Origin: a virus
Virus record (IMG/VR): IMGVR_UViG_3300045988_028822
Coordinates: 1 to 39,872 of that record
Strand: one strand, 5' to 3'
DNA length: 39,872 nt
Position 1 is the stretch's first letter. Each line of letters starts with the position of its first letter. Positions 6,108-37,736 of this stretch are shown here, one piece after another. Position numbers and translations under genes: made by a program. The notes beneath the pieces were generated by a model. The model was not told the origin of the DNA. It ran no database searches and saw only the letters and a list, made by a program, of their open reading frames with translations.

Positions 6108-6506
6108 ATGGCTGGCAAAGCAGTGTTTCCGCTGTCTTACAAGCAGACAGTGACGGCGATCAACGAGTACAAACATAAGGTCGAGACCGGCGAGTATCCA
6201 AAAGCAGATTGGTGGCATTTCTGCGGCACAATCGGCATGGACGCCGAGAGCGTGTCAAAGGCGATCAAAGATCCGCCGGCCAATAAAATGGACGTGGCGC
6301 GCGAGCTAAAAAAGTTTGCTACCTGGATTCGCGGGCAGTACAACACCGCTCCGGGCTGGTCCGGCCCGAACTCGTCAAAGAGCATCTTTGCCAATAAGCA
6401 GGACTTTGACGGCTGCAAGATGATCGATAAGGCCGAGGACGGCAAAAGCTCGGGTGAGCTGACGATCAATATTGAGTTCGGCGGGTCCAAAACGGCTTTC
6501 AAGTAG
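6108..6506 (+). CDS. terS: Putative terminase small subunit (132 aa)
   Basis: ATG at 6108 follows a GGGAGGTGG RBS. It is the nearest plus-strand gene upstream of terL. The C-terminal ...SKSIFANKQDFDG is reminiscent of TerS proteins. Confidence 0.5.
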   Translation: MAGKAVFPLSYKQTVTAINEYKHKVETGEYPKADWWHFCGTIGMDAESVSKAIKDPPANKMDVARELKKFATWIRGQYNTAPGWSGPNSSKSIFANKQDFDGCKMIDKAEDGKSSGELTINIEFGGSKTAFK

Positions 6507-21500: not shown

Positions 21501-24500
21501 TGCAGACGCTATCGCGGAAGGGGACTACAACGCAGCGTCCGACATTCTGGTTGCACTGACGGCGGTTGAGACAAACGCTGGTCAGACGGTGCAGGCGGCA
21601 AGACTCATGAAGTCGTTGACGCCGGAGGGCAGAATCTTCACAGTGCAGAAGATGGTTTCCAATCTGGAAGCGCAGATCAACCAGAGAAGAGCCGCGAACA
21701 AGCAGATCGAGATTGATGTACCGGATACGCTTTTGCAAACGTATCAGAACGCCGCGACGGCAGACGCGCAGGAAGCCGCTTTGCAGAACATTTATCAAAA
21801 TGTTGCAGACCAGATTCCGACATCTCTCGGCGAAGCGGCGCAGCAGTGGCGGTATTTCTCGATGCTGGCGAACCCTTCGACACATGCAAAGAACATCATG
21901 GGTAACGTCTCCGGCGCAGTTGCAAAGATCGGCAAGGATAACCTTGCCGCACTCATGGAAACTGTTTTCATCGGAAACAAAGAAGGCCGAACAAAAGCAT
22001 TCTTAAATCCGCTGAATAAGGCAGACCAGAATCTTTTGAATCTGGGCTGGGCGGACTACGACAACGCAGTCGATCTTTATGAAGACAGCACGGGGAAGTA
22101 CTCCAACACGGCGGGTGACATCAATGACAAGCGCCGGTACTGGAAGATCAATGACCCACAGAATGCTTTGACAAGAGGCATTGACAAGGCTTTGAATATC
22201 GCGGAAAAGGCGAACAACCTGAACAGCAAGGCGCTGGAAGTGGAAGATATGTGGTTCTCGAAGCCTATGTATTCTGTGGCGCTGGCCGGTTATATGAAAG
22301 CCAATGGGCTTACGGAAATCACAGACGCGGCTAGAACCTACGCAATGACCGAAGCGAAGAAGGGCACGTATAATGACCTGAACGCCGTATCCAAGTGGGC
22401 GACATCTCTTGGAAAGGGAAGCAAACTCGGACGGTTCTTGTCCAGTACGATCTATCCATTTAAGAAAGTCCCGGCAAACGTTATGGTTCGGACGGTGGAA
22501 TATTCGCCGCTCGGGTATCTGAAAGGGGCATGGGATCTCATTCAGATGCAGAAAGGGAATCCGGATATCACGGCGGCCAAAGCAATTGATGATTTTGCGG
22601 CGGCCACGACGGGAACGGCGCTTCTCGGTGTCGGCGCGATGCTTGCCAAGCAGGGAATCCTTCGGGCGACGGGCGTCGGCGACGACAAAGAAAAAGAGCA
22701 GCAGAAGAACGCCTTTGGCGCGAAAGATTTCTCCATTCTGGTCGGAGATACGTATATCCCCATTGACAGCCTGACGCTGGCCGGGACAGGGCTATTGACG
22801 GGCGCGCAAATCTGGGAGGCGGCACAGAACGCGCGAAACGGTGACGAACCGATCTCGTTTGAAGATTTTCTCGATGCGCTGTCTAAAATCACAGACCCGG
22901 TGTTTGAACAGTCCATGCTCAGCGGCATGGACAGCATTCTGACGACGATCCAGAATTCCGACGACGCGGGAACCGGCGAGCTACTGACCAAGATGGGCGT
23001 ACAGATTATCGGAAACTATGTCGGGCAGTACGTGCCGACGGTAGTCGGGCGCGTGGCGGCCAGTCTTGACAAGAACCAGAGAAGTACGTATCTGGAACCG
23101 GACGGTGCTTGGAGTCCGGTGCAGTCTGCCGTACAGGGTGTACAGAAGAAGATCCCGGGGCTTCGGGAGGATATGGCCGTCACCTACGGAAACTGGGGCG
23201 TTCCGGTCGAAGGAAACGGGGCGAACGGCTTTGGAGAAGCAGCGTTCAAGGCGGTCACGCCGGTATATCCCTCTAAGCAGAAGACAGATGCAGTGGAAGA
23301 GGAAATCGCGCGGCTGCATGATGTGAACGCGGAATACTCCAACTTCTATACGAAGCCGCCGAAGAGCATTGCCGTAGATGGGGAGAATGTCAAACTGACC
23401 TCTGAACAATACGCAAATTACACAGAAACGAGAGGCCAGACGGACTATAATCTCCGGAAGAATATGTTGGATAGCGATATCTACAAGGGGCTTCCGGATA
23501 ATGTAAAGTCAAAGGCAATGAGCCTTTCGCAGGAGTACGCGAACACGCTTGGAAAAGAAGCGGCGGGCGTTGGCTATGAAAGCGATGAGAAATGGGTCAA
23601 CGGCCTAAAGGGGAAATCCGACGAGGAGATCGTGAACGCGATTCTTGGGCGAGCCGTTGAGAGTGAAAAGTACATCAGCGACGAAGCAAAGAACAAGCTC
23701 GGGAATGTGCAGAAACTCTATGACTCGCTTGCGTATGCCGGGGTATCCGACGATCTGAAAGAATCCGCGCGGGAAAAGGCTGCGGCATACTTCCAAGATG
23801 CGGAAAAGGCGAAATTCGGCTATGAACTCTCCGAAGAGCAGAAGAAGCTTGCAGGGAAAAACCAAAAGACACTTGCAGAGTATTTCCTCGACGAGGCAGT
23901 CAAGGCCAAGTACAAGGATGCGAACAAAGACGGAACGAACCGGGACGAGCTTTTGCAGGCATACAACGACAATGAGCTGAACGACCGGACGGCAATTGCG
24001 GTTCTGTCTGCCCGGGAAGTCGATGCGTATCAGAAGTTCGGAAAGGCCGCAGGCGTTACGCCGCAGATGATGCTTGAAGCGTCCAGCGCGCACGCGAGAA
24101 TGCACGAAGTCAAAGACATTGACGGCATTGTGACCAGCAGCGTACAAGAGCAGTATGACGATTGGCTGGAGTCGAAGAATCTGACGGATGAACAGAAGCG
24201 GGCGCTTCGCATGGGCTTCTACGGGGATACGGTAGATACCTACAACAAGCTTGTGGAAGACCTTGACATCGGAAACATTACCGTCGGAGAGGCGAAGCAA
24301 GCACTATCCCCCACATACCAGTACGGATGGACGCACAATGTCAGCAGCACCGGCGTTCAGATGCGCGATTACATTTCCAGCATGGCGACGTTTGAGAACG
24401 CGCCGACAGCGGAAGAACGCGACAAGATGGGCTTTGACAGCAAGTGGGAATGGTTCTGCAATGAGCTGAACAAGAACACGGAACTGACCAAAGAACAGAA

Positions 24501-25722
24501 GTACGCGATCGCGATCAGCACGGACCGTTCTATGGCGGAAAGTACGAAAAAGAAAATCGCGAACAAGCTTGGGGCATCGTATGTCGCGCCGACTACGCAG
24601 ACCGACGGTTCCGGGGCGTCTTCGACGGCAGGTTCCAGCTCTGGCGGTACGGCGGTCACTTCAACCGAAAGTGCCGCTTCCGGTTCCGACAGCTACGCTT
24701 CCAGCGGGACTGGCGGCGGAACTTTCAGCGGATGGAGCAGCGATGCAGAGGAAAAGAGTCAGGCGCAGAAGGCCTACGAGCGGTTCGGCATGGCGGCAGG
24801 AGCCACGGAAGCCATGTATCAGGAAGCAAAGGCGGCGCTCAAGAACATCGAGACGGTCTACGACATGGACGGAAACGTCGTGCGCAGCGCAGAAGAACAG
24901 TTTGATTCCTGGCTCGAACGCCGGGACTGGACAGAAGACCAGAAGGACGCGGTACGCGCCGGGTTCTACGCGGATACGGTGAAGAACCTCCGGTATCTTT
25001 CTTCGGAGCTTCGGGAAGGAAATATCAGCGTTGCGGCGGCGAAGAGCGAGCTTTCGGCGAGGGCACAGACCGGATGGACACGCAGCGTCATGGACACGGG
25101 CGCGGCAATGGCCGACTACATTGACGCGTGGGCGCAGTTCAAGCAGGCTCCGAACGAAGACGAACGAAAAGCGATGGGGTTCAAGAGCAAATGGGCATGG
25201 TTCTGCGATTATCTCAACCAGACAAACATGACGCCGGAGCAGAAATATGCAATCGCCGTCAGTGTCCAGGATTACGGAGAGAGAACAAAGACAAGGATTC
25301 AGTGGGCGTTCAATTATAACGGAAAGCCGTCAGCCGAGCCGGAGTTTCCGGGTGAAACCTACGACATCCGGACGGACGATGGATACCGGGAGTATCTGAG
25401 TCTGCTTCTCAAGCGGAAAGACCGGTATGAGGCAAAGGACGGCTCTGTGTGGACGCTTGGAGCGGACGGAGATGTGATTGCGCAGACAAAGGACGGGCGG
25501 CAGCTTCGGGTGCGGGCAGTACTCGGGCGGAATGGCTTTGACGACGAGCCGGGAGACGGCTACACGGTCGGCTCGAAGGCGGGGCAGCTTGCGTATAAGA
25601 TGATGCAGAACGGCGTCATGAAGACGTGGGACGCGCCGGACGGGTGGACGTGGAAGCTGGTTCGCGGGGAGATCATCGCGGAGAAGAACGGGACAAAAAT
25701 CCCCGTCCGAATGGCCGGGTAA
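18505..25722 (+). CDS. Giant 2405-aa virion protein of polyvalent type (S/T/K-rich N-terminus, hydrophobic Gly-rich segments, PBECR-like nuclease-fold module, duplicated C-terminal modules)
   Basis: A single uninterrupted ORF. See the findings for the domain observations. Confidence 0.8.
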   Translation: MITKDGERNPNSGKSKAEQASKKGQKKNNTGTGNKGGAPKSIPSASTSTPKTTPSSSTSGSLTTPKTTESQKSSSSSSGSSDSSRKKKTLSAEEKSKALSDLMDRATIGSSRTYGLSFQSSANRKISDAESKRKQTLVEQATKNGYLVGQNTKQAQDFRNTVNQKLERAISSGKSPSEARADEQQRIRTQRTVNRDQEKGYNRTVSELNKQIAAIDSELAPLKNKIEGRYPVVSEKSGKTKEALTEERSKLIQKKKDVTGDYGVLDSIYNSLETGAGQFNSGVTSTLNAGKNALMQLEAIANGGWDKETGKFVKGDAPFFGSLLQPVSDLNQTTKDTTAQFAQKAATGWNQYGKGGDIANQLIQGTVSAVPNAVLAMATAGGSTAATLAPEASGLTATVADAVQKLSKDPMYWTSFIQSFGNSYDEAIEKGATEDEALLATLLSSTVNAVVEVGGGVEQLPGELREAGLTSKDKIRKWVSSSLDEGKEEVVQGMIERLVNKAVYNQDAPWNDDTGKNEDAVFNLGQSAREFGMGAAIGGILGGGQMLAQDIATRGQRLVDPTASPLDQAILDTLQGVQTPENVTQVREPTELDNIVMAAMNQNKNTSADVAEVESTAVNDNPATHTPQEMQIIEAYKGSTDESLKETFESYLDNPQQKFSRHNINDVSERQASDAKQILGGNYEGYKNAINSNGINHVMKEHGPFGTVDHSMADLNDPARIGYVLHNYDSVEQTTYKSGEADLSAEFRGADNKPAPMLKYSKKVNGTYYVVEAVPESKYKKFWVVSAYMETDGGTQASNAVRPGNTPNASLASSPSVSQSTLNQESTLPVNRASDGTSETLLDSMLGASNQNVAQSVDSVNRENVGADASTGAAPAGFDPLSHASNQYGAIPPGENPSRVVDIPASMDGETKVSRFSRTAAEAQITTDEMVGRIEQLVQDGKLSHEVYSNKQAIEDGAKQIEKQYARGKSIEQIRGEFIRDANAGKAGAKFVSQGTTLYADAIAEGDYNAASDILVALTAVETNAGQTVQAARLMKSLTPEGRIFTVQKMVSNLEAQINQRRAANKQIEIDVPDTLLQTYQNAATADAQEAALQNIYQNVADQIPTSLGEAAQQWRYFSMLANPSTHAKNIMGNVSGAVAKIGKDNLAALMETVFIGNKEGRTKAFLNPLNKADQNLLNLGWADYDNAVDLYEDSTGKYSNTAGDINDKRRYWKINDPQNALTRGIDKALNIAEKANNLNSKALEVEDMWFSKPMYSVALAGYMKANGLTEITDAARTYAMTEAKKGTYNDLNAVSKWATSLGKGSKLGRFLSSTIYPFKKVPANVMVRTVEYSPLGYLKGAWDLIQMQKGNPDITAAKAIDDFAAATTGTALLGVGAMLAKQGILRATGVGDDKEKEQQKNAFGAKDFSILVGDTYIPIDSLTLAGTGLLTGAQIWEAAQNARNGDEPISFEDFLDALSKITDPVFEQSMLSGMDSILTTIQNSDDAGTGELLTKMGVQIIGNYVGQYVPTVVGRVAASLDKNQRSTYLEPDGAWSPVQSAVQGVQKKIPGLREDMAVTYGNWGVPVEGNGANGFGEAAFKAVTPVYPSKQKTDAVEEEIARLHDVNAEYSNFYTKPPKSIAVDGENVKLTSEQYANYTETRGQTDYNLRKNMLDSDIYKGLPDNVKSKAMSLSQEYANTLGKEAAGVGYESDEKWVNGLKGKSDEEIVNAILGRAVESEKYISDEAKNKLGNVQKLYDSLAYAGVSDDLKESAREKAAAYFQDAEKAKFGYELSEEQKKLAGKNQKTLAEYFLDEAVKAKYKDANKDGTNRDELLQAYNDNELNDRTAIAVLSAREVDAYQKFGKAAGVTPQMMLEASSAHARMHEVKDIDGIVTSSVQEQYDDWLESKNLTDEQKRALRMGFYGDTVDTYNKLVEDLDIGNITVGEAKQALSPTYQYGWTHNVSSTGVQMRDYISSMATFENAPTAEERDKMGFDSKWEWFCNELNKNTELTKEQKYAIAISTDRSMAESTKKKIANKLGASYVAPTTQTDGSGASSTAGSSSGGTAVTSTESAASGSDSYASSGTGGGTFSGWSSDAEEKSQAQKAYERFGMAAGATEAMYQEAKAALKNIETVYDMDGNVVRSAEEQFDSWLERRDWTEDQKDAVRAGFYADTVKNLRYLSSELREGNISVAAAKSELSARAQTGWTRSVMDTGAAMADYIDAWAQFKQAPNEDERKAMGFKSKWAWFCDYLNQTNMTPEQKYAIAVSVQDYGERTKTRIQWAFNYNGKPSAEPEFPGETYDIRTDDGYREYLSLLLKRKDRYEAKDGSVWTLGADGDVIAQTKDGRQLRVRAVLGRNGFDDEPGDGYTVGSKAGQLAYKMMQNGVMKTWDAPDGWTWKLVRGEIIAEKNGTKIPVRMAG

Positions 25723-28161: not shown

Positions 28162-28610
28162 GAGAATACATAGAAAAGCTTCGGGAGCGGCTGCATGAGC
28201 TGATGGAGCGGCCTGCGACGCTCGGGAATGTGGAAGAGGTCAGACTCTACGCGAAGACCATTCGGGCGCTGGAGAAGCTCGAGTGCGGCGAGACGTTCAC
28301 GAAAGAAGATGCGCTTTACTGGGTGGAGCACATGGAAAACAGCGACGGCACGACCGGGGCGCAATGGACGATGGACGAGACAAGCGCAATGGCAAAGAGC
28401 ATGGGCGTGTATCTTCCGGCCTGCATCTGGTTCGCGGCGGTGAACATGATGCGGTCGGACTACTGCATGGTAGCGAGAAAGCACGGGGTGGACAAGCCGG
28501 AATTTTACGCGGATATGGCGCAGGCGTTCCTTTTTGATGAGGACGCGGGGGAGCCGGAGGAGAAGATTTCGGCGTATTATCACTGTGTTGCAAAGCCAGA
28601 AATTCATTAG
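28158..28610 (+). CDS. Hypothetical protein (150 aa)
   Basis: Track ORF whose start overlaps the upstream stop. The HMENSDGTTGAQWTMDET...NMMRSDY block looks like a conserved phage family that I cannot name. Confidence 0.55.
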   Translation: MREYIEKLRERLHELMERPATLGNVEEVRLYAKTIRALEKLECGETFTKEDALYWVEHMENSDGTTGAQWTMDETSAMAKSMGVYLPACIWFAAVNMMRSDYCMVARKHGVDKPEFYADMAQAFLFDEDAGEPEEKISAYYHCVAKPEIH

Positions 28611-28643
28611 CATTTTTCATTAGCATTTTTCATTAGCATTTTG
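28605..28643 (+). repeat. Tandem CATTAGCATTTTT x3 (13-nt period), putative integrase arm-type sites
   Basis: Read directly. The same word recurs twice at 28850-28872, on the other side of the attP core. Confidence 0.7.
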
Positions 28644-28645
28644 CG

Positions 28646-28705
28646 TTCCGGGAATGCGGTTTTCTTTCCGAAAATGCGGGATAGTTTCCGTAAACGCGGA
28701 ATTGC
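28646..28705 (+). repeat. Three 20-nt-period repeats TTCCGnnAAnGCGG
   Basis: TTCCGGGAATGCGG, TTCCGAAAATGCGG and TTCCGTAAACGCGG start at 28646, 28666 and 28686. Confidence 0.7.
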
Positions 28706-28734
28706 TAAAACGGCTGAAAGTATTGAAAATGCAA

Positions 28735-28770
28735 GAAAAACCTGCAATCTCAATTGATTGCAGGTTTTTG
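28735..28770. terminator. Bidirectional terminator
   Basis: AAAAA-CCTGCAATC-tcaatt-GATTGCAGG-TTTTT. Confidence 0.65.
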
Positions 28771-28775
28771 CTTTT

Positions 28776-28799
28776 TGGTGACCCGTACGGGAATCGAAC
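28776..28799 (-). other. attP core: mimic of a tRNA 3' end (T-loop, T-stem, acceptor, CCA)
   Basis: The reverse complement reads GTTCGATTCCCGTACGGGTCACCA. No full cloverleaf is present upstream, so this is a fragment and not a tRNA gene. Confidence 0.6.
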
Positions 28800-28843
28800 A
28801 CGTAAACAATATGGCAAATGAACCGTAATATCAATGATATTAT

Positions 28844-29920
28844 TTATTTATTAGCATTTTCATTAGCATTTTCTTCTTCCGGGCGCGTGTTTTCAAAAAA
28901 CGCAGCCATTTTATTCCTGGCTTTCAGGCGGTCACATTGGGCGAGATGCGTATAGATTTTACGCATGGTGTTGTAGTCAGACCAGCCGCCAAGCTCCATT
29001 GTGTCCTGCTCACTCATGCCAACATGGTAGGCAAGGGAAGCGAAACTATGACGGAGACCATGCACACCAACCTTCGGCAAGTCGTTATTCTCACAGATCT
29101 GATTGACACGCCAGTACAGGGTTGTTGGGTTTGCAGTATAAATCAGTCCGGTTCGCTTTTCCGCCGGGACGGAATTGATTGCGTCAATCAGTTCCGGAAT
29201 CATGATCGGGACGACACGGCGGGAAGACGTGTTTTTATTTTCACCCTTTTTAATGAGCTTGCCATCTTCATCGAGGACGGAAGAACCATGCACTGTAATT
29301 GTCTTTTCTTTTATGTCAACCATTTCGTAGGTCATAGCTAGAACTTCGGAGCGGCGCAAACCATGAAGCGCAAGAAGAGCCGGAATTTCGAAACGGTCTC
29401 CTTTGAGAATCTTCACAAATTTCAGAATATCGTCCGGCTCCAGCCATTGCTTTTCAGCGCGAATGACTTGCGGAAGACGGATTTCCGGAACGGGGAGATT
29501 TGCGTAACGAAGCGCTGATGCAAGAAATCCCCACGCGTTTTTCAGCGTTTTTGCAGAAACAAGGTTCGCTTCGGTGTCAATCACTTTCTGCCAGTCTTTA
29601 ATGCTATCGTGTGTGGAATCAGAGATGGAGAGAAAACGCGTTTTCTTGATACTGGCATAGCCCCGCACGGTTGCGGGGGACGCGGTTGCGCGGATGCTGT
29701 CTATGTACGCCTGCATCAGCTCGGAAATTGTCTGCTCTGTTTTTTTTGTTATGCGGCGTTTCCCAGCGATATGCTCAGCTTTAATGAGCTGCGCTTGCTG
29801 GATACATTCCTTCTTGCTGGGAGCAGAGACAGGGACACTGACACCGTTCAAACGCATCTGGATAAACCATGTACCACTTGGTAATTTCTTTGGCTCTGGT
29901 ACTTTCATGATGAACCTCAA
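28844..29920 (-). CDS. int: Tyrosine integrase (358 aa)
   Basis: HGLRRSE..., VHGLRHSFASLAY, GWSDYNTMRKIYTHL (R...HxxR...Y pattern). Adjacent to attP. Confidence 0.9.
   Translation of the reverse strand: MRFIMKVPEPKKLPSGTWFIQMRLNGVSVPVSAPSKKECIQQAQLIKAEHIAGKRRITKKTEQTISELMQAYIDSIRATASPATVRGYASIKKTRFLSISDSTHDSIKDWQKVIDTEANLVSAKTLKNAWGFLASALRYANLPVPEIRLPQVIRAEKQWLEPDDILKFVKILKGDRFEIPALLALHGLRRSEVLAMTYEMVDIKEKTITVHGSSVLDEDGKLIKKGENKNTSSRRVVPIMIPELIDAINSVPAEKRTGLIYTANPTTLYWRVNQICENNDLPKVGVHGLRHSFASLAYHVGMSEQDTMELGGWSDYNTMRKIYTHLAQCDRLKARNKMAAFFENTRPEEENANENANK
28850..28872 (+). repeat. (C)ATTAGCATTTT x2, second arm-site cluster
   Basis: Read directly. It overlaps the integrase C-terminal codons (ENANENANK). 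Confidence 0.65.
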
Positions 29921-30969: not shown

Positions 30970-31000
30970 ATCAATACGCCGCAAGGAAAGGAGCACGCCG

Positions 31001-31144
31001 ATGACACGCGAAGAAGCAGCCAAATACATAGAGCGTCTATCTTACGATGAAAAGCGACAACTCAACGATTTGCTAAGAGCCCTTGCACAAAAGCGTCAAC
31101 CTTCTGCATCTCTTCGGGTGTCAAAGAAACCAGACGCGAAATAA
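31001..31144 (+). CDS. Possible small protein (47 aa) convergent with and overlapping the repressor gene
   Basis: AAGGAAAGGAG RBS 7 nt before the ATG. Translation MTREEAAKYIERLSYDEKRQLNDLLRALAQKRQ... It overlaps 31062..31144 antisense to the repressor C-terminus. Confidence 0.3.
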   Translation: MTREEAAKYIERLSYDEKRQLNDLLRALAQKRQPSASLRVSKKPDAK

Positions 31145-31439
31145 GATCCTCGTTTAACTTCCTCTCGTCCTCCGGGACGGGGGGATTTTTTTCGTCTGTC
31201 TCGCCCTTGAGCCAAGCAACAGAGACACCATACTTTGCAGAAATCTCATAAAGATAGTTACTATATGACGTTGAGTTGCCAGCTATCCAGTCTGAAATTA
31301 TGTGTCCATCCTTGAATCCAAGCGGACGGGCAAATGCCGCCAGCGAACCATGTTTGAAATCGCCATTTTCCTTCTTCGGAATAAGCGAGAGAATACGTTC
31401 TAGCATAATGTCCATAATTGGAACCTCAAAATTGTGCAT
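31062..31439 (-). CDS. cI-like XRE-family repressor (125 aa; the start may be ATG 31415, which follows GAGG)
   Basis: GSLAAFARPLGFKDGHIISDWIAGNSTSYSNYLYEISAKYGVSVAWLKGETD has an HTH_XRE pattern. Divergent from the cro-like gene across an operator. Confidence 0.75.
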   Translation of the reverse strand: MHNFEVPIMDIMLERILSLIPKKENGDFKHGSLAAFARPLGFKDGHIISDWIAGNSTSYSNYLYEISAKYGVSVAWLKGETDEKNPPVPEDERKLNEDLISRLVSLTPEEMQKVDAFVQGLLANR

Positions 31440-31455
31440 GTAAACAAATAGTTTG

Positions 31456-31488
31456 AATAAACCATTTTATTATTGCAAATGGTTTATT
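31456..31488. promoter_or_regulatory. Operator: perfect 12-bp inverted repeat AATAAACCATTT / AAATGGTTTATT
   Basis: Arms at 31456-31467 and 31477-31488. The right arm overlaps the -35 of the rightward promoter. Confidence 0.6.
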
Positions 31489-31501
31489 TATGAGTTATTA
31501 T
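31473..31501 (+). promoter_or_regulatory. Rightward early promoter
   Basis: TTGCAA (31473-31478), 17-nt spacer, TATTAT (31496-31501). Confidence 0.5.
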
Positions 31502-31647
31502 ATGAGCGTACCCGAAAGGTACAGCAAAGCAGCCCCTCGGAGAGCGGCAAAAAACAATGTTTTCTGAACAATTTCATTGTAACACCGCTCCTGAAGGGTT
31601 GTCAATCATTATTACTCATATTTATGAGGCTCAGAGGAGGCGAGAGA

Positions 31648-31905
31648 TTGAGGCTGAAAGAACTCCGGCTAAAAGCAGGGCTTACGCAGGCGGAAGTTGC
31701 AAAGGAACTGAACGTGAACCAGTCTGCGGTACACCTGTGGGAGACCGGGAGAACACGCATTGCACGGAAACATCACGAAAATCTGGCAAGACTGTACGGG
31801 GTGACGATTCCCGAGCTTTTTACAGGAGGTGAAGAACATGCCGAAGGCGGCGGTAAAGCGGACGCTGGACTACATGCTGGAAGCGAAAATCCGGGGAGAG
31901 ATTGA
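31648..31905 (+). CDS. Cro-like XRE HTH protein (85 aa, TTG start)
   Basis: GGAGG, 8 nt, then TTG. Translation (M)RLKELRLKAGLTQAEVAKELNVNQSAVHLWETG. The same 17-nt SD-TTG cassette precedes 32091. Confidence 0.6.
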   Translation: MRLKELRLKAGLTQAEVAKELNVNQSAVHLWETGRTRIARKHHENLARLYGVTIPELFTGGEEHAEGGGKADAGLHAGSENPGRD

Positions 31906-32077
31906 GGCACAAGGCGTGAGCGTTGAGAAAGCCTGCAAGTACGCGGGCATTGGAAGCACGACGCTTTATGAGCTTTACAAGAGCCCGACGAAGTATTTCC
32001 CGCAGGCGCTCCGGCTCATGCGCTGTCTGGGCGTTCCGATTGCGGATGTACGGGAAATGATCTGCTACCCGTGGTAA
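31838..32077 (+). CDS. Small HTH protein (79 aa)
   Basis: AGGAGG RBS 8 nt before ATG 31838. VSVEKACKYAGIGSTTLYELYK is HTH-like. Confidence 0.5.
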   Translation: MPKAAVKRTLDYMLEAKIRGEIEAQGVSVEKACKYAGIGSTTLYELYKSPTKYFPQALRLMRCLGVPIADVREMICYPW

Positions 32078-32090
32078 GGGAGGCGAGAGA

Positions 32091-32309
32091 TTGAGCAAAA
32101 GAAGCTTTGGCGCTTACGTGAAGGCAAGACTGCACGACCTGAACATGACGCAGGCCGATCTTGCAGACTGCTGCAACGTGACGCAGAGCCACATCAGCAA
32201 TGTACTAAACGGACGGGCGAGCGCCCGGAAGCTCAGACCGGTCATCATCTCTGTGCTTGATCAGTGGGAAGCGCAGAGGAAGGAACGGAGGAAACGGCAC
32301 CAGCCGTAA
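32091..32309 (+). CDS. XRE HTH protein (72 aa, TTG start)
   Basis: LNMTQADLADCCNVTQSHISNVLNG. The SD-TTG cassette is identical to the one at 31636-31652. Confidence 0.6.
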   Translation: MSKRSFGAYVKARLHDLNMTQADLADCCNVTQSHISNVLNGRASARKLRPVIISVLDQWEAQRKERRKRHQP

Positions 32310-32330
32310 AATTTAGGAGGATTGAAACGA

Positions 32331-32915
32331 ATGAAAGTCAGATTAACATTTTTGGAGCCTGTGCTTGGCACATGGCCGAGCAATGAGAATGTAGCGCGGG
32401 ATTTCATCGCGTCGAAAGCGCCGGACGCTTCTACCATTGAAGACGAGATCGCGGCTTTGGGCGCGGACGTGGTAGCTGACAAGGGCATGACGGTATTCCC
32501 CCGCGCGAACGGGTGCCCGGTTCTTTACGATTACCAGATCAAGGGGTTCTTCAAAGACTCTTGTGGTATGTTGGCAAGAGTCAAGAGCAAGAAGAGCTCG
32601 ACCTTGAGAGCTTACAAGAAGATCATCGACGGTCTGATTTTCGTCGAGCCGCGGCACATCCCGATTCAGACAAACGGTGAGATTGGCGAATGCCAGCGTC
32701 CTTTGAGAGCACAGACCCCGCAGGGTGAGCGTGTGAGCCTTGCGAACTCGGAGGAGATTCCGGCGGGCAGCACGATCGAGTTTGAGATCAACATGTTAGA
32801 CGAAAAGGCACACAAGGATATCGTCCTGGAATGGCTGGATTACGGACGGCTCAGAGGCATCGGCCAGTGGCGAAACTCCGGAAAGGGACGGTTCTCCTAC
32901 GAAGTGCTCGAGTAA
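32331..32915 (+). CDS. Conserved phage protein with RAMP/Cas7-like motifs (194 aa)
   Basis: TAGGAGG RBS. Motifs MKVRLTFLEPVLGT, PVLYDYQIKGFFKD, and a C-terminal Gly-rich loop GIGQWRNSGKGRF (32856-32894). Confidence 0.6.
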   Translation: MKVRLTFLEPVLGTWPSNENVARDFIASKAPDASTIEDEIAALGADVVADKGMTVFPRANGCPVLYDYQIKGFFKDSCGMLARVKSKKSSTLRAYKKIIDGLIFVEPRHIPIQTNGEIGECQRPLRAQTPQGERVSLANSEEIPAGSTIEFEINMLDEKAHKDIVLEWLDYGRLRGIGQWRNSGKGRFSYEVLE

Positions 32916-33681
32916 ATGCGATGGCGGGGCCGGGAACGGCCGTGATCGGCACAGCAAAGCAAGGGCACAGCGAAGGCATCGATAAGCTATGAGAGCAAAG
33001 GAAAGGCACCGATGCGCGGCGAAAAGCATCGAAAAGCAACGGATATGCGATGAACCGCATAGTGTCGCGAGGGAGAGGCATGGCTCCGAACGGCGAAGAC
33101 AGGCATTGAACGGCAACGGCGTGGTGTTGCAAAGCGTAGCAATGGCGTTGTGTTGCAGCGTAAAGTTCGGCAAAGGCTTCGACTGCTGCGAGTAGCGAGG
33201 GCATGACTTGGAGCTGCGTAGCGAAGCAAAGGCTTGGTAGGGCAATGCTGGGTACGCAAAGGCTTTGGTATGCAATTCGTGGCAACGGCACTGTAGAGAT
33301 TTGATGTGCCTCGCAAAGGCAAAGAATAGTCTGGCTTCGCGGCGGCATGGGATGCTATGTTTGCGACGGAAAAGCGAGGCAGGGCTATGCTAGGGAATAG
33401 CTACGAGAAGCGCAGCGGAGGCAAAGTGCCGCAAAGCAATGGAAAGGCAAAGACTGCGCGGCAAAGGCGAAGTAAAGCAAGGATTGGCAACGGCGTAGTA
33501 ACGCACGCTTTGCTTCGACAGGCAAGGGCAGAGATGTGCACTGATCGGCACGGCAAAGGCAATGTAAAGCTCGGCAATGCGTAGCGGCGGAAGGGCTGCG
33601 AAGGGCTCAGAGACGCAAAGGCTATGCAGCAAACAGAAAAGCCCCACTCGGCAAGGAAGATTATTTAAGGAGGATGAGAAA
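32916..33681 (+). repeat. Purine-rich non-coding tract with 14 same-strand GCAAAG motifs (7 as GCAAAGGC)
   Basis: Motif starts at 32954, 32995, 33129, 33170, 33226, 33256, 33313, 33319, 33421, 33431, 33447, 33461, 33553 and 33615. The reverse complement occurs only once. Confidence 0.8.
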
Positions 33682-33945
33682 ATGAGTGACGTTGAGATTA
33701 TCACGGAGTTAAACCACCGGGCGGCGCGGGAGCGCGAGCTCGGCGAAAGGTGGGATGAGATCGTCCGGCTTCGCAAGCGGCAAAAGAGCCTGATGAAGAT
33801 CGCGGAAACGGTCTGCTTCTCTGTGGCGTGTATGCTGCTGGGCGGTACGGCGGTTATGCTGGGCTTTGGCCTGTTCCGGGCTGCGGTCACGCTTGGAGGC
33901 GCGGCGGCGTGCTTCTTCGTCGGCGCGGTGCTTACGGGGGCATGA
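33682..33945 (+). CDS. Small membrane protein (87 aa)
   Basis: AAGGAGG RBS 7 nt before the ATG. Two C-terminal TM helices. Confidence 0.55.
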   Translation: MSDVEIITELNHRAARERELGERWDEIVRLRKRQKSLMKIAETVCFSVACMLLGGTAVMLGFGLFRAAVTLGGAAACFFVGAVLTGA

Positions 33946-33946
33946 T

Positions 33947-34120
33947 ATGGAGCATCCTTGTGAGAGCTGCACGAAGGGGCGCGGGGAGAATTGCATGTGC
34001 AACAGATGGCGGGAGTGGTTTCGCTACACATGCGCGAATCCGCCAGAAGCGCCGCAGGAGCAGAAGGTCACGTACCGCGATATCGTGTTCTGGACGGTGT
34101 TTACAGAAGCGTGGAGGTGA
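33947..34120 (+). CDS. Small Cys-rich protein (57 aa)
   Basis: ATG at 33947 lies just after the upstream stop. Motif CESC...CMC. Confidence 0.4.
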   Translation: MEHPCESCTKGRGENCMCNRWREWFRYTCANPPEAPQEQKVTYRDIVFWTVFTEAWR

Positions 34121-34122
34121 AC

Positions 34123-34341
34123 ATGAAGCAGACGGAGAGAATCCTGCAATATATGCGCGACTTCGGCAGCATTACGCAGCTCGAAGCGATTCGGGACATC
34201 AGTTGTATGCGTCTGGGAGCGAGAATCTTTGACCTCAAGCGTGAGGGCTACGAGATCAAGAAGGAAACGGAAACGAGCAAGAACCGGTATGGTGAGGACA
34301 CGAGCTATGCCAGATACAGGTTGGTGGATGATGAAGGATAA
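34123..34341 (+). CDS. Winged-helix DNA-binding protein (72 aa)
   Basis: ILQYMRDFGSITQLEAIRDISCMRLGARIFDLKREGYEI is the pattern of small phage wHTH proteins. Confidence 0.55.
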   Translation: MKQTERILQYMRDFGSITQLEAIRDISCMRLGARIFDLKREGYEIKKETETSKNRYGEDTSYARYRLVDDEG

Positions 34342-34552
34342 GCAGCAAGCGCAATGTATGTTTGACCGGTTCGGCGCTGAGATTTACGAAGGCGAAGAAT
34401 ACTTCGCCGGAAACGAAGGAGATATCTTCGTGTGCGATTCTGAGAACTTTGACCCGGGCAATCATGTCATTTGCGATCTGGTAGAGACGATGGGAACAAA
34501 GTGGATATTAGAGCAGCTGGGGTATCAGAAGAAGACGTTCTGCCCCGGCTGA
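34307..34552 (+). CDS. Hypothetical protein (81 aa; start uncertain)
   Basis: Track ORF 34229..34552. The ATG at 34307 follows GAGGA. Confidence 0.4.
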   Translation: MPDTGWWMMKDKQQAQCMFDRFGAEIYEGEEYFAGNEGDIFVCDSENFDPGNHVICDLVETMGTKWILEQLGYQKKTFCPG

Positions 34553-34565
34553 GAAGGAGGGTAAT

Positions 34566-35210
34566 ATGCTGAAAGGATTTAACGAGCTTGTACAGATCGA
34601 CGTTTTGCCGTTCTGCGACAAGCGGAAGGCGAAGGATGACAACGGGAAGCCGATTGAGGTTCCGTATCTTCCGTGGGCGAAATGCAAAATGCTGCTGCAC
34701 GAAAACGGGGCCAATGAGGTCTATTTTGTGCCGCTGAAAAATGAGACTGGCGGGTACTTATTCCAGTCAAAGGAAGTCCATGACAAGAATGGCAGAACGA
34801 CGGGGTGCTATTTTGTCTCCGTTGAAATCCACATCGACGATAAGACGTTCCGAATGGATATGCCGCTGATGAACGGTTCCTTAGTCGTCTACGATGACAC
34901 ATTGAATCAGCTTCGGATTTCCAACGCTCACGCGAGAGCTTTTGTGAAGGGCGTGGCCATTCACACGGGGCTTGGGTTTAAGCTTTGGCTGAACGACAAG
35001 GACACGGAACGCGCAGACGATGACCTTTCCCAGCACAGCATTATGGCGATCAAGCAAAGAATCGAGCAGCTGATTACTTTGAAGCTGCAAAACGGGGCGG
35101 ATATGAGCTATATCCTCTCGGCGCTTGGGCTGAATCAGAAGAAATTCGATCAGCTGATGGCGTCGTTCGGTAACATTCAGTATCTGGAAAATACGCTGAA
35201 ACGCTTATGA
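34566..35210 (+). CDS. Rad52-superfamily single-strand annealing protein (Sak/DUF1071-like, 214 aa)
   Basis: YLPWAKCKMLL and ARAFVKGVAIHTGLGFKLW motifs. Followed by an exonuclease gene. Confidence 0.6.
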   Translation: MLKGFNELVQIDVLPFCDKRKAKDDNGKPIEVPYLPWAKCKMLLHENGANEVYFVPLKNETGGYLFQSKEVHDKNGRTTGCYFVSVEIHIDDKTFRMDMPLMNGSLVVYDDTLNQLRISNAHARAFVKGVAIHTGLGFKLWLNDKDTERADDDLSQHSIMAIKQRIEQLITLKLQNGADMSYILSALGLNQKKFDQLMASFGNIQYLENTLKRL

Positions 35211-35767
35211 TACACGACCACGACAGAAGCGGATGGTTCGGCGCTTCGGATACGGCGGCGATCATGGGCAGATGGGGCACAAAGACGTTCCGCAGCTTTT
35301 GGCTGCAAAAGCTCGGCGTGAACCGCGACCACTTTTCGACACTGGAAATGGATACCGGAAGTGCTTACGAACACAGGATTCTGGAGCATATCGGTATCCG
35401 GAAGATGGACAGGCAGATCAGGATTCGACGGCTCCGGCTTCGGGTGAATCTGGATGGAGAGGACGCGCAGGAAATATCAGAGGTAAAGACGCACAAGGGA
35501 GAATCCTTCAAGGTGTCCCGCGCGTACTGGATGCAGGCGCAGGTCGAAATGTTCGCGGCGAAAAAGAATTTGCGTATCGTTGCGTACCATCTGGAACCGG
35601 AAGACTACAGAAACTGGTTTCGGGAGATTGCGGACGATAGGCTGTCCTATCATCCGATACCGTATGATCGGGAATGGATAGAAGGGGAGTATCTGCCACG
35701 GCTTCGGTATCTTGCGAAGTGTCTCAGAAAGGGGGTCATTCCGGTTGAGGGAGCTGAACATAGTTGA
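35207..35767 (+). CDS. YqaJ-like PD-(D/E)XK recombination exonuclease (186 aa)
   Basis: WFGASDTAAIMG, LDGEDAQEISEVKT, AYWMQAQVEMF. Confidence 0.7.
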   Translation: MIHDHDRSGWFGASDTAAIMGRWGTKTFRSFWLQKLGVNRDHFSTLEMDTGSAYEHRILEHIGIRKMDRQIRIRRLRLRVNLDGEDAQEISEVKTHKGESFKVSRAYWMQAQVEMFAAKKNLRIVAYHLEPEDYRNWFREIADDRLSYHPIPYDREWIEGEYLPRLRYLAKCLRKGVIPVEGAEHS

Positions 35768-36581: not shown

Positions 36582-37007
36582 ATGCTGAACCACATTACCA
36601 TTATGGGGCGGTTGACCCGTGACCCGGAACTGAGAAAGACGCAGGGCGGAACGTCCGCTGCATCCTTCACGCTGGCGGTTGACCGCGACCTCACGCCGAA
36701 GGGCGGAGAGAAAGAGACGGATTTTATCGATTGCGTCGCGTGGGCGGGAACAGCTGAATTTGTAAGCGGTTACTTTTTCAAGGGCAGTATGGCCGTCGTG
36801 GACGGCAGATTGCAGCTGCGCGACTGGAAGGACAAGAACGGAAACAAGCGCCGGTCTGCTGAGATCGTAGCGAACCGTGTTTACTTCGGCGAAGGAAAGA
36901 AATCTTCGGAGCCGCAGAACCTGGAAAACCCCGGCAGGTTTACGATGATGAAAGATGACGGCGGGTTTACGATGATGGAAGATGACGGCGAAGAACTGCC
37001 GTTCTAA
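36582..37007 (+). CDS. ssb: Single-stranded DNA-binding protein (141 aa)
   Basis: MLNHITIMGRLTRDPELR... OB-fold signature and an acidic C-terminal tip DDGEELPF. Confidence 0.9.
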   Translation: MLNHITIMGRLTRDPELRKTQGGTSAASFTLAVDRDLTPKGGEKETDFIDCVAWAGTAEFVSGYFFKGSMAVVDGRLQLRDWKDKNGNKRRSAEIVANRVYFGEGKKSSEPQNLENPGRFTMMKDDGGFTMMEDDGEELPF

Positions 37008-37019
37008 GGCGGTGGCGGT

Positions 37020-37736
37020 ATGGCAAACAACAAAGACCCTGCCGTCTTGTTTTACACGTCGGATTTCCTATCCGGCTGTGCCTTGATGGATATGCGGGAG
37101 CGTGGGCAGTATATCACGCTCCTGTGCCTCCAAAGAGAGCGCGGGCATATGACGATGCAGGAAATCATACGGGCTGTCAAAAAGCCGTCAGACGAGGTTA
37201 TGAGCAAGTTTCAGAAGGATGATGACGGCAAGTACTTCAATCGCCGGATGGAGCTTGAAATCGAAAAACGGGACAAGCATTGCCAGCGTCAAAGGGAGAA
37301 CATCAGCAAGCGTTGGAACAAAGAAAATGATAACTCTGGTATGGATGATGGTAGTGCTTGCGGTAATACCACGGTATTACCTTTAGGAAATGGAAATGGA
37401 AATAGAAAAGAGAGTAGTTCTATTTCTGAGAAGAAACGTAAGAAATTTATACCACCTACGTTGGAAGATGTTTCCGCATACGCGAAGGAGCGTGGAGTCC
37501 CGAATCTGGCACAGAAATTTTTCGACTATTATTCTGCCGGAAATTGGGTCGACGGTAAGGGTGACCTCGTACGGAACTGGAAACAGAAGTTTTTGACATG
37601 GGAATCGAAAGAACGTGAGAAGGGCACGCCGTCACAGCCGGGGAAGAAGCCGGGATACAACGTGCAGCATCACGACGGCGATCTGAGCGACTTACAGAAA
37701 GCGGCGATTCAGCGGATGATGGGGGAGAAAGCATGA
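37020..37736 (+). CDS. DUF1376 (YdaU-like) replication organiser/initiator-type protein (238 aa)
   Basis: AVLFYTSDFLSGCALMDMRERGQYITLLCL. The low-GC linker and the C-terminal FIPPTLEDVSAYAKERG...NWKQKFLTW module are seen in phage replication proteins. Confidence 0.6.
   Translation: MANNKDPAVLFYTSDFLSGCALMDMRERGQYITLLCLQRERGHMTMQEIIRAVKKPSDEVMSKFQKDDDGKYFNRRMELEIEKRDKHCQRQRENISKRWNKENDNSGMDDGSACGNTTVLPLGNGNGNRKESSSISEKKRKKFIPPTLEDVSAYAKERGVPNLAQKFFDYYSAGNWVDGKGDLVRNWKQKFLTWESKEREKGTPSQPGKKPGYNVQHHDGDLSDLQKAAIQRMMGEKA

What the first reader, a model, noticed from the sequence alone, without database searches (positions are those of the whole stretch)
32916..33681. 766-nt purine-rich non-coding tract with 14 co-oriented GCAAAG motifs in the early/replication region
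The region between the stop of 32331..32915 and the strong RBS/ATG at 33682 has no credible ORF on the transcribed (+) strand, yet it is clearly non-random.
- The + strand is strongly G/A-rich.
- GCAAAG occurs 14 times (starts 32954, 32995, 33129, 33170, 33226, 33256, 33313, 33319, 33421, 33431, 33447, 33461, 33553, 33615). Seven copies extend to GCAAAGGC.
- The reverse complement CTTTGC appears only once (about 33507).
- Related words (GGCAACGGC, GCAATG, GCGTAGC) also recur.
- Spacing is irregular (6 to about 130 nt) and the motif falls in all three frames, so conservation is at the DNA/RNA level, not the protein level.
- Depletion of TTA/CTA/TCA on the + strand leaves all three minus-strand frames open (the 159-, 165- and 111-aa track ORFs). 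I read this as a compositional artefact.

I know of no described element that looks like this. Hypotheses:
- (a) An oriented iteron array or R-loop-prone origin, given the G/A-rich non-template strand next to the recombination genes.
- (b) A long ncRNA with multiple binding sites that sponges a protein, or that is bound or processed by the adjacent RAMP-like protein.
- (c) A cluster of oriented Chi-like sites.
Basis: seen in the sequence. Interest (0 to 1): 0.8.

Follow-up and report, generated by a model that had tools for sequence, protein, structure and literature searches.

The report
Phage VIPR guide-RNA repeat array
The purine-rich "non-coding" tract is an array of about 150 five-base repeats that most likely encodes guide RNAs for the small CRISPR-like (RAMP) protein made by the gene just upstream, which makes it a VIPR system, a phage-against-phage weapon first described in 2026 preprints.

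Summary
All 14 GCAAAG copies sit at the stated coordinates, against 1.8 expected, and the tract is 64% purine.

GCAAAG is only the visible part of a deeper pattern: a strict 5-nt periodicity. G autocorrelation at lag 5 is 0.415, against 0.00±0.04 in shuffles. The unit is n-G-[C/A]-n-n. Every 4-9 units there is a 6-nt unit, nGCAAn, followed by GG[C/A]. This gives about 26 modules of roughly 31 nt.

The upstream gene (32331-32915) encodes a 194-aa protein with a Cas7-like RAMP fold. Its G-loop, GIGQWRNSGKGRF, matches that of the solved SUSP1 Vipr protein.

Gene and co-oriented pentamer array occur together in 70 of 73 viral loci and 65 of 74 bacterial loci. Flanking genes are not conserved.

Among close relatives the scaffold G hardly varies (5%), while the other positions vary by 20-40%. 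Whole modules are gained and lost.

This matches the VIPR systems (Vipr protein plus GGY/NN pentamer vrRNAs) described in bioRxiv 10.64898/2026.04.26.720920 and .720927. It fits the alternative "YNNNG" consensus and possibly the "staggered array" architecture.

The origin and Chi hypotheses are not supported.

No targets were found, and expression is untested. I class it as a new member, possibly a variant, of a very recently described kind.

The parts
32331..32915 (+). vipr-like gene. It encodes a 194-aa minimal RAMP (Cas7-like) protein with the G-loop G176-I-G-Q-W-R-N-S-G-K-G-R-F188.
   Evidence: AlphaFold2 model: pLDDT 72.7, pTM 0.72. Top Foldseek PDB hits are type VII Cas7, Csm3 and Cas7-11 (E 1e-6 to 1e-4, TM about 0.55). 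A family profile hits type VII Cas7 (E 0.088) and the 'SUSP1 Vipr protein' 36pp_D (E 0.19), with G-loops aligned. hhalign of 105 family representatives against 118 type II Vipr relatives gives probability 85.5% and E 5.7e-6 over 121 columns. BFVD has a 90%-identical entry named 'Cas system-associated RAMP superfamily protein'. PADLOC gives a weak Cas7_IIId hit (E 0.0044).
32916..33660 (+). Putative vrRNA array. It holds about 150 pentanucleotide units n-G-[C/A]-n-n in about 26 modules, co-oriented with vipr and filling the whole intergenic space.
   Evidence: 5-nt periodicity. Segmentation into units. Unit matrix: position 2 is G at 93%; position 3 is C at 58% and A at 34%. Position-specific variability among close relatives is 0.35, 0.05, 0.20, 0.40 and 0.30. 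No Rfam match at E<=1. No excess RNA structure, z +0.59 and -0.48.
33072..33117 (+). Example module 7, the longest regular one, with 9 units: GGAGA GGCAT GGCTC CGAAC GGCGA AGACA GGCAT TGAAC GGCAAC. It starts with GG[C/A]A and ends with the 6-nt unit nGCAAn.
   Evidence: Segmentation. An identical module is present in L009 and L012, a 1-2-mismatch copy in L010 and L007, and it is absent from L005, L006, L011 and L032.
33170..33177 (+). Example module junction GCAAA|GGC.
   Evidence: Eight of the 14 GCAAAG copies lie on such junctions: 32995, 33170, 33226, 33256, 33313, 33461, 33553 and 33615. The other six are in-frame units nGCAA followed by a unit starting AG (read from the segmentation). Junction logo: position 28 C 98%, position 29 A 76%, position 30 A 87%; the next module starts G 98%, G 100%.
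32091..32309 (+). Small HTH (Xre/Cro-type) gene directly upstream of vipr. It is context only and not a conserved partner.
   Evidence: Pfam HTH_3 and PHROG 1468 'transcriptional repressor'. A homologue is found in only 1 of 164 vipr loci.
34123..34341 (+). Winged-helix (HTH_39) gene downstream. It is the only nearby candidate for a DNA-binding accessory (vap-like) protein, and the link is weak.
   Evidence: Pfam HTH_39, E 3e-17. Present near vipr in only 8 of 164 loci.
31473..31501 (+). Promoter-like site at the head of the rightward early operon, which would carry vipr and the array.
   Evidence: Consensus scan only, 9 of 12 matches. No + strand terminator-like site lies between vipr and the gene at 33682.

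Best explanation
The tract and the gene before it form a VIPR-type (Viral Interference Programmable Repeat) cassette in a temperate phage of gut Clostridia.

Proposed mechanism:
- The tract is transcribed with the upstream gene.
- Copies of the 194-aa RAMP protein bind the RNA one protomer per 5-nt unit.
- Each protomer grips the invariant G and the following C/A through the G-loop residues W180 and R181 and the thumb.
- This leaves the variable bases of each unit exposed as a gapped guide.
- The array is divided into about 26 modules of 4-9 units. Each module begins with GG[C/A]A and ends with a 6-nt unit nGCAAn. This shifts the frame by +1, and the modules are probably the individual guide RNAs.
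- By analogy with characterised VIPR systems, the ribonucleoprotein filaments would bind double-stranded DNA of competing phages or other mobile elements and silence transcription.

Shown here:
- the periodic anatomy of the tract;
- the RAMP fold of the protein;
- remote homology to Vipr, including the G-loop;
- the obligatory gene-array linkage;
- the contrast between scaffold and variable positions;
- module-wise turnover between related arrays.

Inferred only: transcription, processing at module junctions, protein binding, the pairing rule and the targets.
For: 1. Periodicity and unit structure.

2. The same scanner finds the known pentamer arrays beside bona fide vipr genes. These are SUSP2, a Mycobacterium prophage, phiHSIC and a Gordonia phage (sequences).

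3. Gene-array linkage:
- 70 of 73 IMG/VR loci have the array, at about 30 motifs per kb against 1-3 per kb in the rest of the locus, with 0-4 reverse-complement copies per array against 6-25 forward.
- 65 of 74 bacterial-genome loci have it, 58 downstream and 7 upstream, across 53-94% protein identity.
- Flanking genes are not conserved.

4. Protein:
- Cas7-like fold.
- G-loop GIGQWRNSGKGRF aligned to SUSP1 Vipr GVGDWRPR-FGRF.
- Profile-profile E 5.7e-6, probability 85.5%.
- In the cryo-EM paper W178 stacks on G2, R179 contacts Y3 and D177 reads G1. Here W and R are nearly invariant. D is replaced by an invariant Q. This fits the loss of G1 conservation inside modules.

5. Evolution:
- Scaffold G varies at 5% of positions, against 20-40% for the other positions, in arrays whose Vipr proteins are 94-96% identical.
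- Modules are present or absent as blocks.

6. Literature: VIPR is defined as Vipr plus YNNGG repeats. Alternative consensus forms NNNGG, YNNNG and NNNNG are reported, as are 'staggered' arrays whose vrRNAs overlap by 1 nt.

7. The RNA shows no excess folding. This is as expected for an RNA held extended by protein.
Against: - Sequence similarity to the experimentally characterised type II Vipr is remote. Single-profile E against PDB sequences is 0.19. hhalign probability is only 60-85%, and the N-terminal third is not aligned.
- Position 3 accepts A (34%) as well as C. In SUSP1 the Y3 pocket excludes purines.
- There is no conserved 3' tail or pseudoknot as in type II vrRNAs.
- No conserved accessory (vap) gene was found.
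- Modules carry only 4-6 variable dinucleotides. This seems too little for specific targeting under the published rule.
- No target was found. There was no enrichment over permuted controls in 0.7-1.2 Mb of related phage DNA for skip 0-3 or a contiguous-triplet rule.
- Four exact scans of IMG/VR gave two chance-like hits and three empty results.
- There are no expression data.
Confidence: 0.85

Rival explanations
1. A DNA-level element: an oriented iteron array or R-loop-prone replication origin, bound as double-stranded DNA by a phage initiator.
For: The tract lies in the early region near the recombination genes Sak SSAP, HNH and SSB. It has a strongly G/A-rich non-template strand.
Against: - There are no 17-22-bp iterons. 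The repeat families found are only 60-76% alike and are by-products of the 5-nt frame.
- GC stays at 0.55-0.58 with no AT-rich unwinding region.
- In 164 loci the array follows the RAMP gene, while replication and recombination neighbours differ.
- Variable positions turn over fast and by whole modules. Binding sites for a single protein should not do this.
Confidence: 0.03
2. A decoy or sponge RNA-protein pair. The phage RAMP and its periodic RNA would mimic or titrate host class 1 CRISPR (type III or I) components, or another RNA-binding factor, rather than guide DNA recognition.
For: The closest solved folds are type III and type VII Cas7 subunits. The array is very long, up to about 800 nt, and no targets were found.
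Against: - A decoy would be expected to keep a constant sequence. Here three of every five positions are nearly random and evolve fast, while only the protein-contact positions are fixed.
- Modules are exchanged like spacers.
- The G-loop residues that read the repeat in a guide-presenting Vipr filament are conserved.
Confidence: 0.05
3. A cluster of oriented Chi-like recombination hotspots.
For: A short oriented motif lies next to the SSAP and SSB genes.
Against: - GCAAAG is at background elsewhere: 29 + strand copies in the other 39 kb, against 14 in 766 nt.
- Every copy is explained by the pentamer frame or a module junction.
- The same anatomy follows the RAMP gene in phages with unrelated recombination modules.
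Confidence: 0.01
4. A protein-coding region after all, either through the open minus-strand frames or through a recoded + strand gene.
For: Three minus-strand ORFs of 111-165 aa are open.
Against: - No family hits.
- Periodicity is 5, not 3.
- Length varies from 150 to 800 nt among relatives, with block indels of 21-46 nt that are not multiples of three.
- The + strand has stops in all frames.
Confidence: 0.01

Closest known systems
VIPR systems, type II (Escherichia phage SUSP1 and Pseudomonas fulva prophage); bioRxiv 10.64898/2026.04.26.720920 and 10.64898/2026.04.26.720927
   Same: - Phage-encoded.
- One small (~20 kDa) stand-alone RAMP with a G-loop ...G-x-G-[D/Q]-W-R...G-R-F.
- A co-oriented intergenic RNA made of tandem pentanucleotide units. 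Fixed protein-contact bases alternate with hypervariable bases.
- No CRISPR repeats or other cas genes.
   Different: - The unit is n-G-[C/A]-n-n rather than G-G-Y-n-n. The first G is fixed only in the first unit of each module, and A is allowed at position 3.
- No ~100-nt vrRNAs with 9-16 repeats plus a structured 3' tail. Instead there is one uninterrupted array of about 745 nt with about 26 short modules, delimited by a 6-nt nGCAAn unit.
- The G-loop D that reads G1 is Q here.
- No vap gene was recognised.
- Protein similarity is remote: hhalign E 5.7e-6, probability 85%.
VIPR variants mentioned but not characterised in the same preprint: alternative repeat consensus (NNNGG, YNNNG, NNNNG) and 'staggered vrRNA arrays' (fig. 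S18)
   Same: - A single conserved G followed by C fits 'YNNNG'.
[quoted passage not shown]
   Different: I could not see the figures or the locus tables, because no supplementary tables are held. So neither the type assignment nor the inclusion of this gut-phage family among their 667 systems could be verified.
Class 1 CRISPR backbone filaments (Csm3/Cmr4 of type III, Cas7 of types I, IV and VII)
   Same: RAMP fold, G-rich loop and thumb hairpin. One protomer binds per fixed number of guide nucleotides, with periodic base flipping. These are the best structural matches.
   Different: - Periodicity is 5 nt, not 6 nt.
- The guide itself carries the periodic sequence.
- No CRISPR repeat-spacer array.
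- No Cas5, Cas6, Cas10 or Cas1-Cas2 genes nearby among the ORFs tested.
TRAP-trp leader RNA (11 G/UAG triplets separated by 2-3 nt). This is an analogy from my own knowledge, not tested here.
   Same: An oligomeric protein reads a short motif repeated every 5-6 nt on an unstructured RNA.
   Different: TRAP is a closed 11-mer ring with an unrelated fold. Its spacer bases have no guide function, and it binds about 55 nt, not hundreds.

Membership tests
VIPR system | Stand-alone minimal RAMP protein (RRM core, G-rich loop, thumb; ~20 kDa) | tested here: met
   The protein is 194 aa. Its AlphaFold2 model matches Cas7/Csm3 folds (E 1e-6, TM ~0.55). It has the G-loop GIGQWRNSGKG. The low-confidence segment 124-137 sits where the thumb lies.
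VIPR system | Homology of the protein to characterised Vipr proteins | tested here: inconclusive
   Profile against PDB sequences: SUSP1 Vipr E 0.19, with the G-loop aligned. hhalign gives E 6e-5 to 5.7e-6 and probability 60-85% over the C-terminal 93-121 columns. The result is supportive but remote, and the N-terminus is not aligned.
VIPR system | Adjacent intergenic tandem pentanucleotide repeats (YNNGG or related NNNGG/YNNNG/NNNNG), at least 4 units, co-oriented with the gene | tested here: met
   About 150 units. G at position 2 in 93% of units, C/A at position 3. Lag-5 autocorrelation 0.415, about 11 sd above shuffles. The same is seen in 135 of 147 related loci.
VIPR system | Conserved scaffold bases alternate with hypervariable guide bases | tested here: met
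   Variability per unit position is 0.35, 0.05, 0.20, 0.40 and 0.30 among close relatives. Information content is near zero at positions 4, 5 and 1 of internal units.
VIPR system | Not part of a CRISPR-Cas locus | tested here: met
   No CRISPR-like repeat array in the window. Neighbouring genes are HTH, SSAP, HNH, SSB and integrase.
VIPR system | Encoded by a phage or prophage | tested here: met
   The window carries a tyrosine integrase, a 2405-aa ORF (18505-25722) of tape-measure size (not searched against any family library), SSAP and SSB. Relatives lie in IMG/VR contigs and in Oscillospiraceae, Faecalibacterium and other Clostridia genomes.
VIPR system | Structured invariant 3' tail on each vrRNA (type II) | tested here: not met
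   The periodic frame runs through the whole tract. The only recurrent non-guide element is nGCAAn|GG[C/A]. There is no excess secondary structure. The preprint describes other array architectures, so this is not a family-wide requirement.
VIPR system | Accessory vap gene next to vipr | tested here: not met
   None of the window's neighbours is conserved beside vipr; each is found in only 1-8 of 164 loci. Unrelated small DNA-binding genes in other loci were not examined systematically.
VIPR system | vrRNAs expressed and bound by Vipr | not testable with these tools
   This needs small-RNA sequencing and a pull-down.
VIPR system | Natural DNA targets matching the variable bases under the 1-nt skip rule | tested here: inconclusive
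   No enrichment over permuted guides in the local 0.7-1.2 Mb database. Exact IMG/VR scans gave 2 chance-like hits for an 18-base pattern and 0 for three longer patterns.
Class 1 CRISPR-Cas | Array of 23-50-bp direct repeats separated by unique spacers, plus further cas genes | tested here: not met
   Searches find no such array. No cas families were found among the neighbouring ORFs tested.
Iteron-type replication origin | Several well-conserved 17-22-bp direct repeats, an adjacent AT-rich region, and linkage to an initiator gene | tested here: not met
   Repeat families are only 60-76% alike. GC is flat at 0.55-0.58. There is no conserved neighbouring gene other than the RAMP gene.
Chi-like sites | Short oriented motif over-represented along the genome, not in one cluster | tested here: not met
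   14 of the 43 + strand copies lie in 766 nt. The other 29 are spread over the remaining 39 kb.

The most novel reading that the evidence does not exclude
This very abundant gut-phage family may be a distinct VIPR type with its own grammar. The arrays are long and tail-less. Guide boundaries would be encoded by a 6-nt nGCAAn unit and a +1 frame shift, with no ribozyme or structured handle. Only G2 and C/A3 would be held by the protein. That would free three bases per pentamer, so the pairing rule could differ from the published 'two paired, one skipped' code. Specificity might come from several short guides acting together.
Probability: 0.25. Interest if true: 0.75.

Novelty: new member of a known kind. 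Interest (0 to 1): 0.55.

Why it matters
VIPR is a newly reported mode of RNA-guided DNA recognition, using a gapped pentamer code, and it has been proposed as an ancestor of CRISPR effectors.

The family here is very large:
- at least 1862 clusters at 50% identity;
- at least 7960 clusters at 90% identity.

It is carried by temperate phages of dominant human-gut Clostridia such as Faecalibacterium and Oscillospiraceae. It is uncharacterised experimentally.

Its arrays are far longer than those studied, reaching about 800 nt and about 26 modules in this phage. They also show a clear punctuation signal.

If the modules are guides, these arrays record which competitors each gut prophage fights. 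The module grammar could also show how guides are delimited without ribozymes or tails.

For annotation, the result means that such 'purine-rich intergenic tracts' should be called vrRNA arrays. They should not be called origins or hypothetical minus-strand ORFs.

Tried and rejected
- **Rfam.** Permissive thresholds on 31000-35500 gave nothing relevant.
- **Pfam and PHROG.** Searches on the RAMP protein, the minus-strand ORFs and the longest + strand ORF in the tract gave no hits.
- **Tandem Repeats Finder and seed-based repeat finding.** These saw only fragments, because the units are too degenerate.
- **RNA folding.** Two 300-nt halves showed no excess stability, so a folded ribozyme or riboswitch-like RNA was rejected.
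- **Conserved accessory gene.** None was found by tblastn of all window neighbours against 164 loci.
- **Local target prediction.** I tested skip 0-3 with NN guides at 7 and 10 units, and a contiguous N4N5N1 triplet rule, against 0.7-1.2 Mb of related phage DNA with permuted-guide controls. There was no enrichment. The excess at skip 3 was unmasked arrays matching each other.
- **IMG/VR target scans.** Four exact pattern scans were run. Module 7 under the 1-nt skip rule gave 2 hits in unrelated contexts, judged to be chance. Module 7 as contiguous triplets gave 0 hits. Two cross-junction 22-base patterns gave 0 hits each.
- **Preprint supplementary tables.** I looked for type assignment and accession lists, but none are held.
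- **Minus-strand G-phase hits.** Two hits at 6318-6402 and 9918-10017 were inspected. They lie inside + strand structural genes and are not arrays.
Full report
**1. The observation**

The tract 32916-33681 lies between the stop codon of a 194-aa gene (32331-32915) and the ribosome-binding site and ATG at 33682.

The single reverse-complement copy is at 33508.

Motif counts against 2000 dinucleotide-preserving shuffles of the tract:

| Motif | Observed | Expected |
|---|---|---|
| GCAAAG | 14 | 1.78±1.27 (maximum 8) |
| GCAAAGGC | 7 | 0.19 |
| GCAA[ACT]GG | 14 | 1.03 |

The tract is 64.5% purine. None of the ORFs in it hits Pfam or PHROGs. Rfam finds nothing at E<=1.

**2. What the motif really is**

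Motif spacing is not irregular. Across 66 distinct related tracts the distances between motifs fall on 5, 6, 10, 15/16, 20/21, 25/26, 30/31 (the mode), 35/36, 41 and so on.

In the window, G autocorrelation at lag 5 is 0.415. Shuffles give -0.001±0.036 (maximum 0.130). Any other 766-nt stretch of the window, on either strand, gives at most 0.085. The spectral peak is at 5.11 nt.

An iteratively trained unit model over 66 arrays gave the following unit matrix:

| Unit position | Composition |
|---|---|
| 1 | any base (G 41%) |
| 2 | G 93% |
| 3 | C 58%, A 34% |
| 4 | A-biased |
| 5 | any base |

An independent set of 53 arrays from bacterial genomes was started from a nearly flat model. It converged on the same unit.

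About one unit in six is 6 nt long. It is nearly always nGCAA[A/C/T] or nGC[A/G][A/G]n, and it is followed by GG[C/A]. Runs of 5-nt units between these long units peak at five. Modules therefore peak at 31 nt, with 36 nt next.

The module logo:
- The first unit is G(98%) G(100%) C/A A(73-81%) n.
- Internal units are n G C/A n n, with almost no information at positions 4, 5 and 1.
- The last unit is n G C(98%) A A n.

The window array parses into about 150 units and about 26 modules.

Six are in-frame nGCAA units followed by a unit starting AG. This is read directly from the segmentation.

**3. The neighbouring gene**

The 194-aa product has no Pfam or PHROG family. Its AlphaFold2 model has pLDDT 72.7 and pTM 0.72.

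Structure and sequence matches:
- Foldseek against PDB matches CRISPR backbone RAMPs. These are type VII Cas7, Csm3, Cas7-11 and type IV Cas7, with E 1e-6 to 1e-4 and TM about 0.55.
- The family profile weakly hits type VII Cas7 (E 0.088) and the PDB entry 'SUSP1 Vipr protein' (E 0.19).
- In that alignment GKLRGIGQWRNSGKGRF lies on GNLCGVGDWRPR-FGRF.
- BFVD holds a 90%-identical virome protein already named 'Cas system-associated RAMP superfamily protein'.
- PADLOC gives a weak Cas7_IIId hit.

The family is very large. It has at least 7960 clusters at 90% identity and 1862 clusters at 50% identity with E<=1e-3. None carries an informative name.

**4. Linkage of gene and array**

Four human-gut phage contigs in GenBank carry a homologue. 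Three have the same kind of tract directly after the stop codon. The fourth, which is low-GC with 51% protein identity, has its array upstream.

| Collection | Loci with a co-oriented array next to the gene | Notes |
|---|---|---|
| IMG/VR viral contigs | 70 of 73 | 150-800 nt; about 30 motifs/kb vs 1-3/kb elsewhere |
| One-genome-per-species bacterial set | 65 of 74 | 58 downstream, 7 upstream |

The bacterial hosts are mostly Oscillospiraceae, Faecalibacterium and other Clostridia.

The window's other neighbours are found beside the gene in only 1-8 of 164 loci. Gene plus array therefore behaves as a self-contained cassette.

**5. Evolutionary behaviour**

Arrays of phages whose RAMP proteins are 94-96% identical to the window's are only 74-87% identical to the window's array. 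They also differ by block indels.

In a multiple alignment of the five closest arrays, the scaffold G varies at 5% of its positions and position 3 at 20%. Positions 1, 4 and 5 vary at 30-40%.

Individual modules are present or absent as units:
- Modules 8-9 are identical in L009 and L032.
- Modules 12-13 are shared with L005, L010 and L011 instead.
- Modules 17-18 are shared only with L005.
- Modules 5, 19 and 20 are unique to the window.
- The two 3'-terminal modules are shared by most relatives.

This is how a set of guide units would behave. It is not how binding sites for one protein would behave.

The RNA has no excess predicted structure, with z +0.59 and -0.48.

**6. Comparison with what is known**

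A literature search triggered by the PDB name found two 2026 preprints. [quoted passage not shown]
- The protein is a phage-encoded minimal RAMP (Vipr, ~20 kDa).
- The vrRNAs are made of 9-16 YNNGG (GGY/NN) pentamers plus a 3' tail.
- One protomer binds each repeat. G1 is read by H17 and D177, G2 by R138 and W178, and Y3 by R179 and a narrow pocket.
- The NN bases pair with double-stranded DNA, skipping every third target base.
- This gives transcriptional silencing of competing phages and satellites.

The preprints report seven types and alternative repeat consensus forms (NNNGG, YNNNG, NNNNG). They also report array architectures that include 'staggered arrays' whose vrRNAs overlap by 1 nt.

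My G-phase scanner recovers the published SUSP-type arrays. It also recovers arrays beside Vipr homologues of a Mycobacterium prophage, phiHSIC and a Gordonia phage.

Profile-profile comparison of the window's family with the type II Vipr family gives E 6e-5 to 9e-5 with small alignments. With 105 and 118 diverse members it gives E 5.7e-6 and probability 85.5% over 121 columns.

The G-loop W and R are nearly invariant here. The D that reads G1 is an invariant Q. This fits the observation that the first G is conserved only in the first unit of each module.

Differences from the characterised type II systems:
- no structured tail;
- short modules in one long uninterrupted array;
- A tolerated at position 3;
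- no recognisable accessory gene.

The +1 offset at nGCAAn|GG fits the wording of the 'staggered array' legend. I could not see that figure or any locus table.

**7. Mechanism proposed, and what is only inferred**

The rightward early operon is the most likely source of a vipr-array transcript. It has a promoter-like site at 31473-31501 and no + strand terminator before 33682.

Vipr protomers would coat the RNA one per pentamer. The nGCAAn/GG[C/A] punctuation would delimit or phase the individual guides. The filaments would then bind DNA of competitors and block transcription.

Only the anatomy, the fold, the linkage and the evolutionary pattern are shown. Transcription, processing, binding, the pairing rule and the targets are inferred by homology.

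My target searches were negative or uninformative.

The short length of modules, 4-6 variable dinucleotides, is a real puzzle under the published rule.

**8. Rivals**

- **Iteron origin.** This fails on repeat type, base composition and linkage.
- **Chi cluster.** This fails because the motif is local and fully explained by the frame.
- **Coding.** This fails on periodicity and on indels that are not multiples of three.
- **Decoy or sponge RNP.** This is not excluded, but it is disfavoured by the hypervariable, module-swapping positions.

**9. Verdict**

This is a real, non-random, functional-looking element.

The element belongs to a class described only months ago, so it is not categorically new. 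It is an uncharacterised and very abundant gut-phage lineage with a distinctive array grammar.

The window itself is a temperate phage. It has a tyrosine integrase at 28844-29920 on the minus strand, and SSAP, HNH and SSB genes downstream. It has no CRISPR array and no tRNA genes.

Noticed in passing
window 28603-28860: There are three perfect tandem copies of TTCATTAGCATTT at 28603-28642, and a near copy at 28848-28860. Three spaced copies of TTCCG-N5-[A/C]GCGG lie at 28645-28700. At about 28776-28806 the sequence TGGTGACCCGTACGGGAATCGAACACG is the reverse complement of a tRNA 3' end (T arm, acceptor and CCA), although ARAGORN finds no whole tRNA. The region sits just before the integrase gene (28844-29920, minus strand). 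It looks like an attP core that targets a host tRNA gene, with arm-type binding sites.
   Followed up: partly
window 36932-36990: A 27-nt unit is repeated 2.2 times (93% match) inside the C-terminal part of the SSB gene (36582-37007). This is probably a duplicated acidic tail segment.
   Followed up: no
L004 3616-3845 (MT835477, 84.7-kb gut phage contig): In this low-GC relative (Vipr 51% identical) the pentamer array lies upstream of the gene instead of downstream. Seven of the 74 bacterial-genome loci show the same upstream-only arrangement.
   Followed up: partly
window 32923-32963 (module 2) and 33000-33040 (module 5), 33420-33465 (modules 19-20): Modules 5, 19 and 20 are absent from all ten closest arrays, and module 2 is shared only with L011. 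The two 3'-terminal modules (33589-33660) are shared by most. The array therefore turns over by modules, with the promoter-distal end the most stable.
   Followed up: partly
window 32924-32955: A short palindrome-like element (GGCCG GGAA CGGCC) lies at the very start of the array, in frame with the pentamers. It is the only hairpin-like feature in the tract, and its role is unknown.
   Followed up: no
window 37020-37736 and 35207-35767: These two early-region ORFs (238 and 186 aa) have no Pfam or PADLOC hit.
   Followed up: partly
L093, L113, L121, L142, L157, L162 (genome contigs titles): A few homologous cassettes sit in bins labelled Bacteroides, Prevotella, Olsenella, Muribaculaceae, Cryptobacteroides or Eggerthella. 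This may be mis-binning of phage contigs, or a host range that is truly wider than Clostridia.
   Followed up: no
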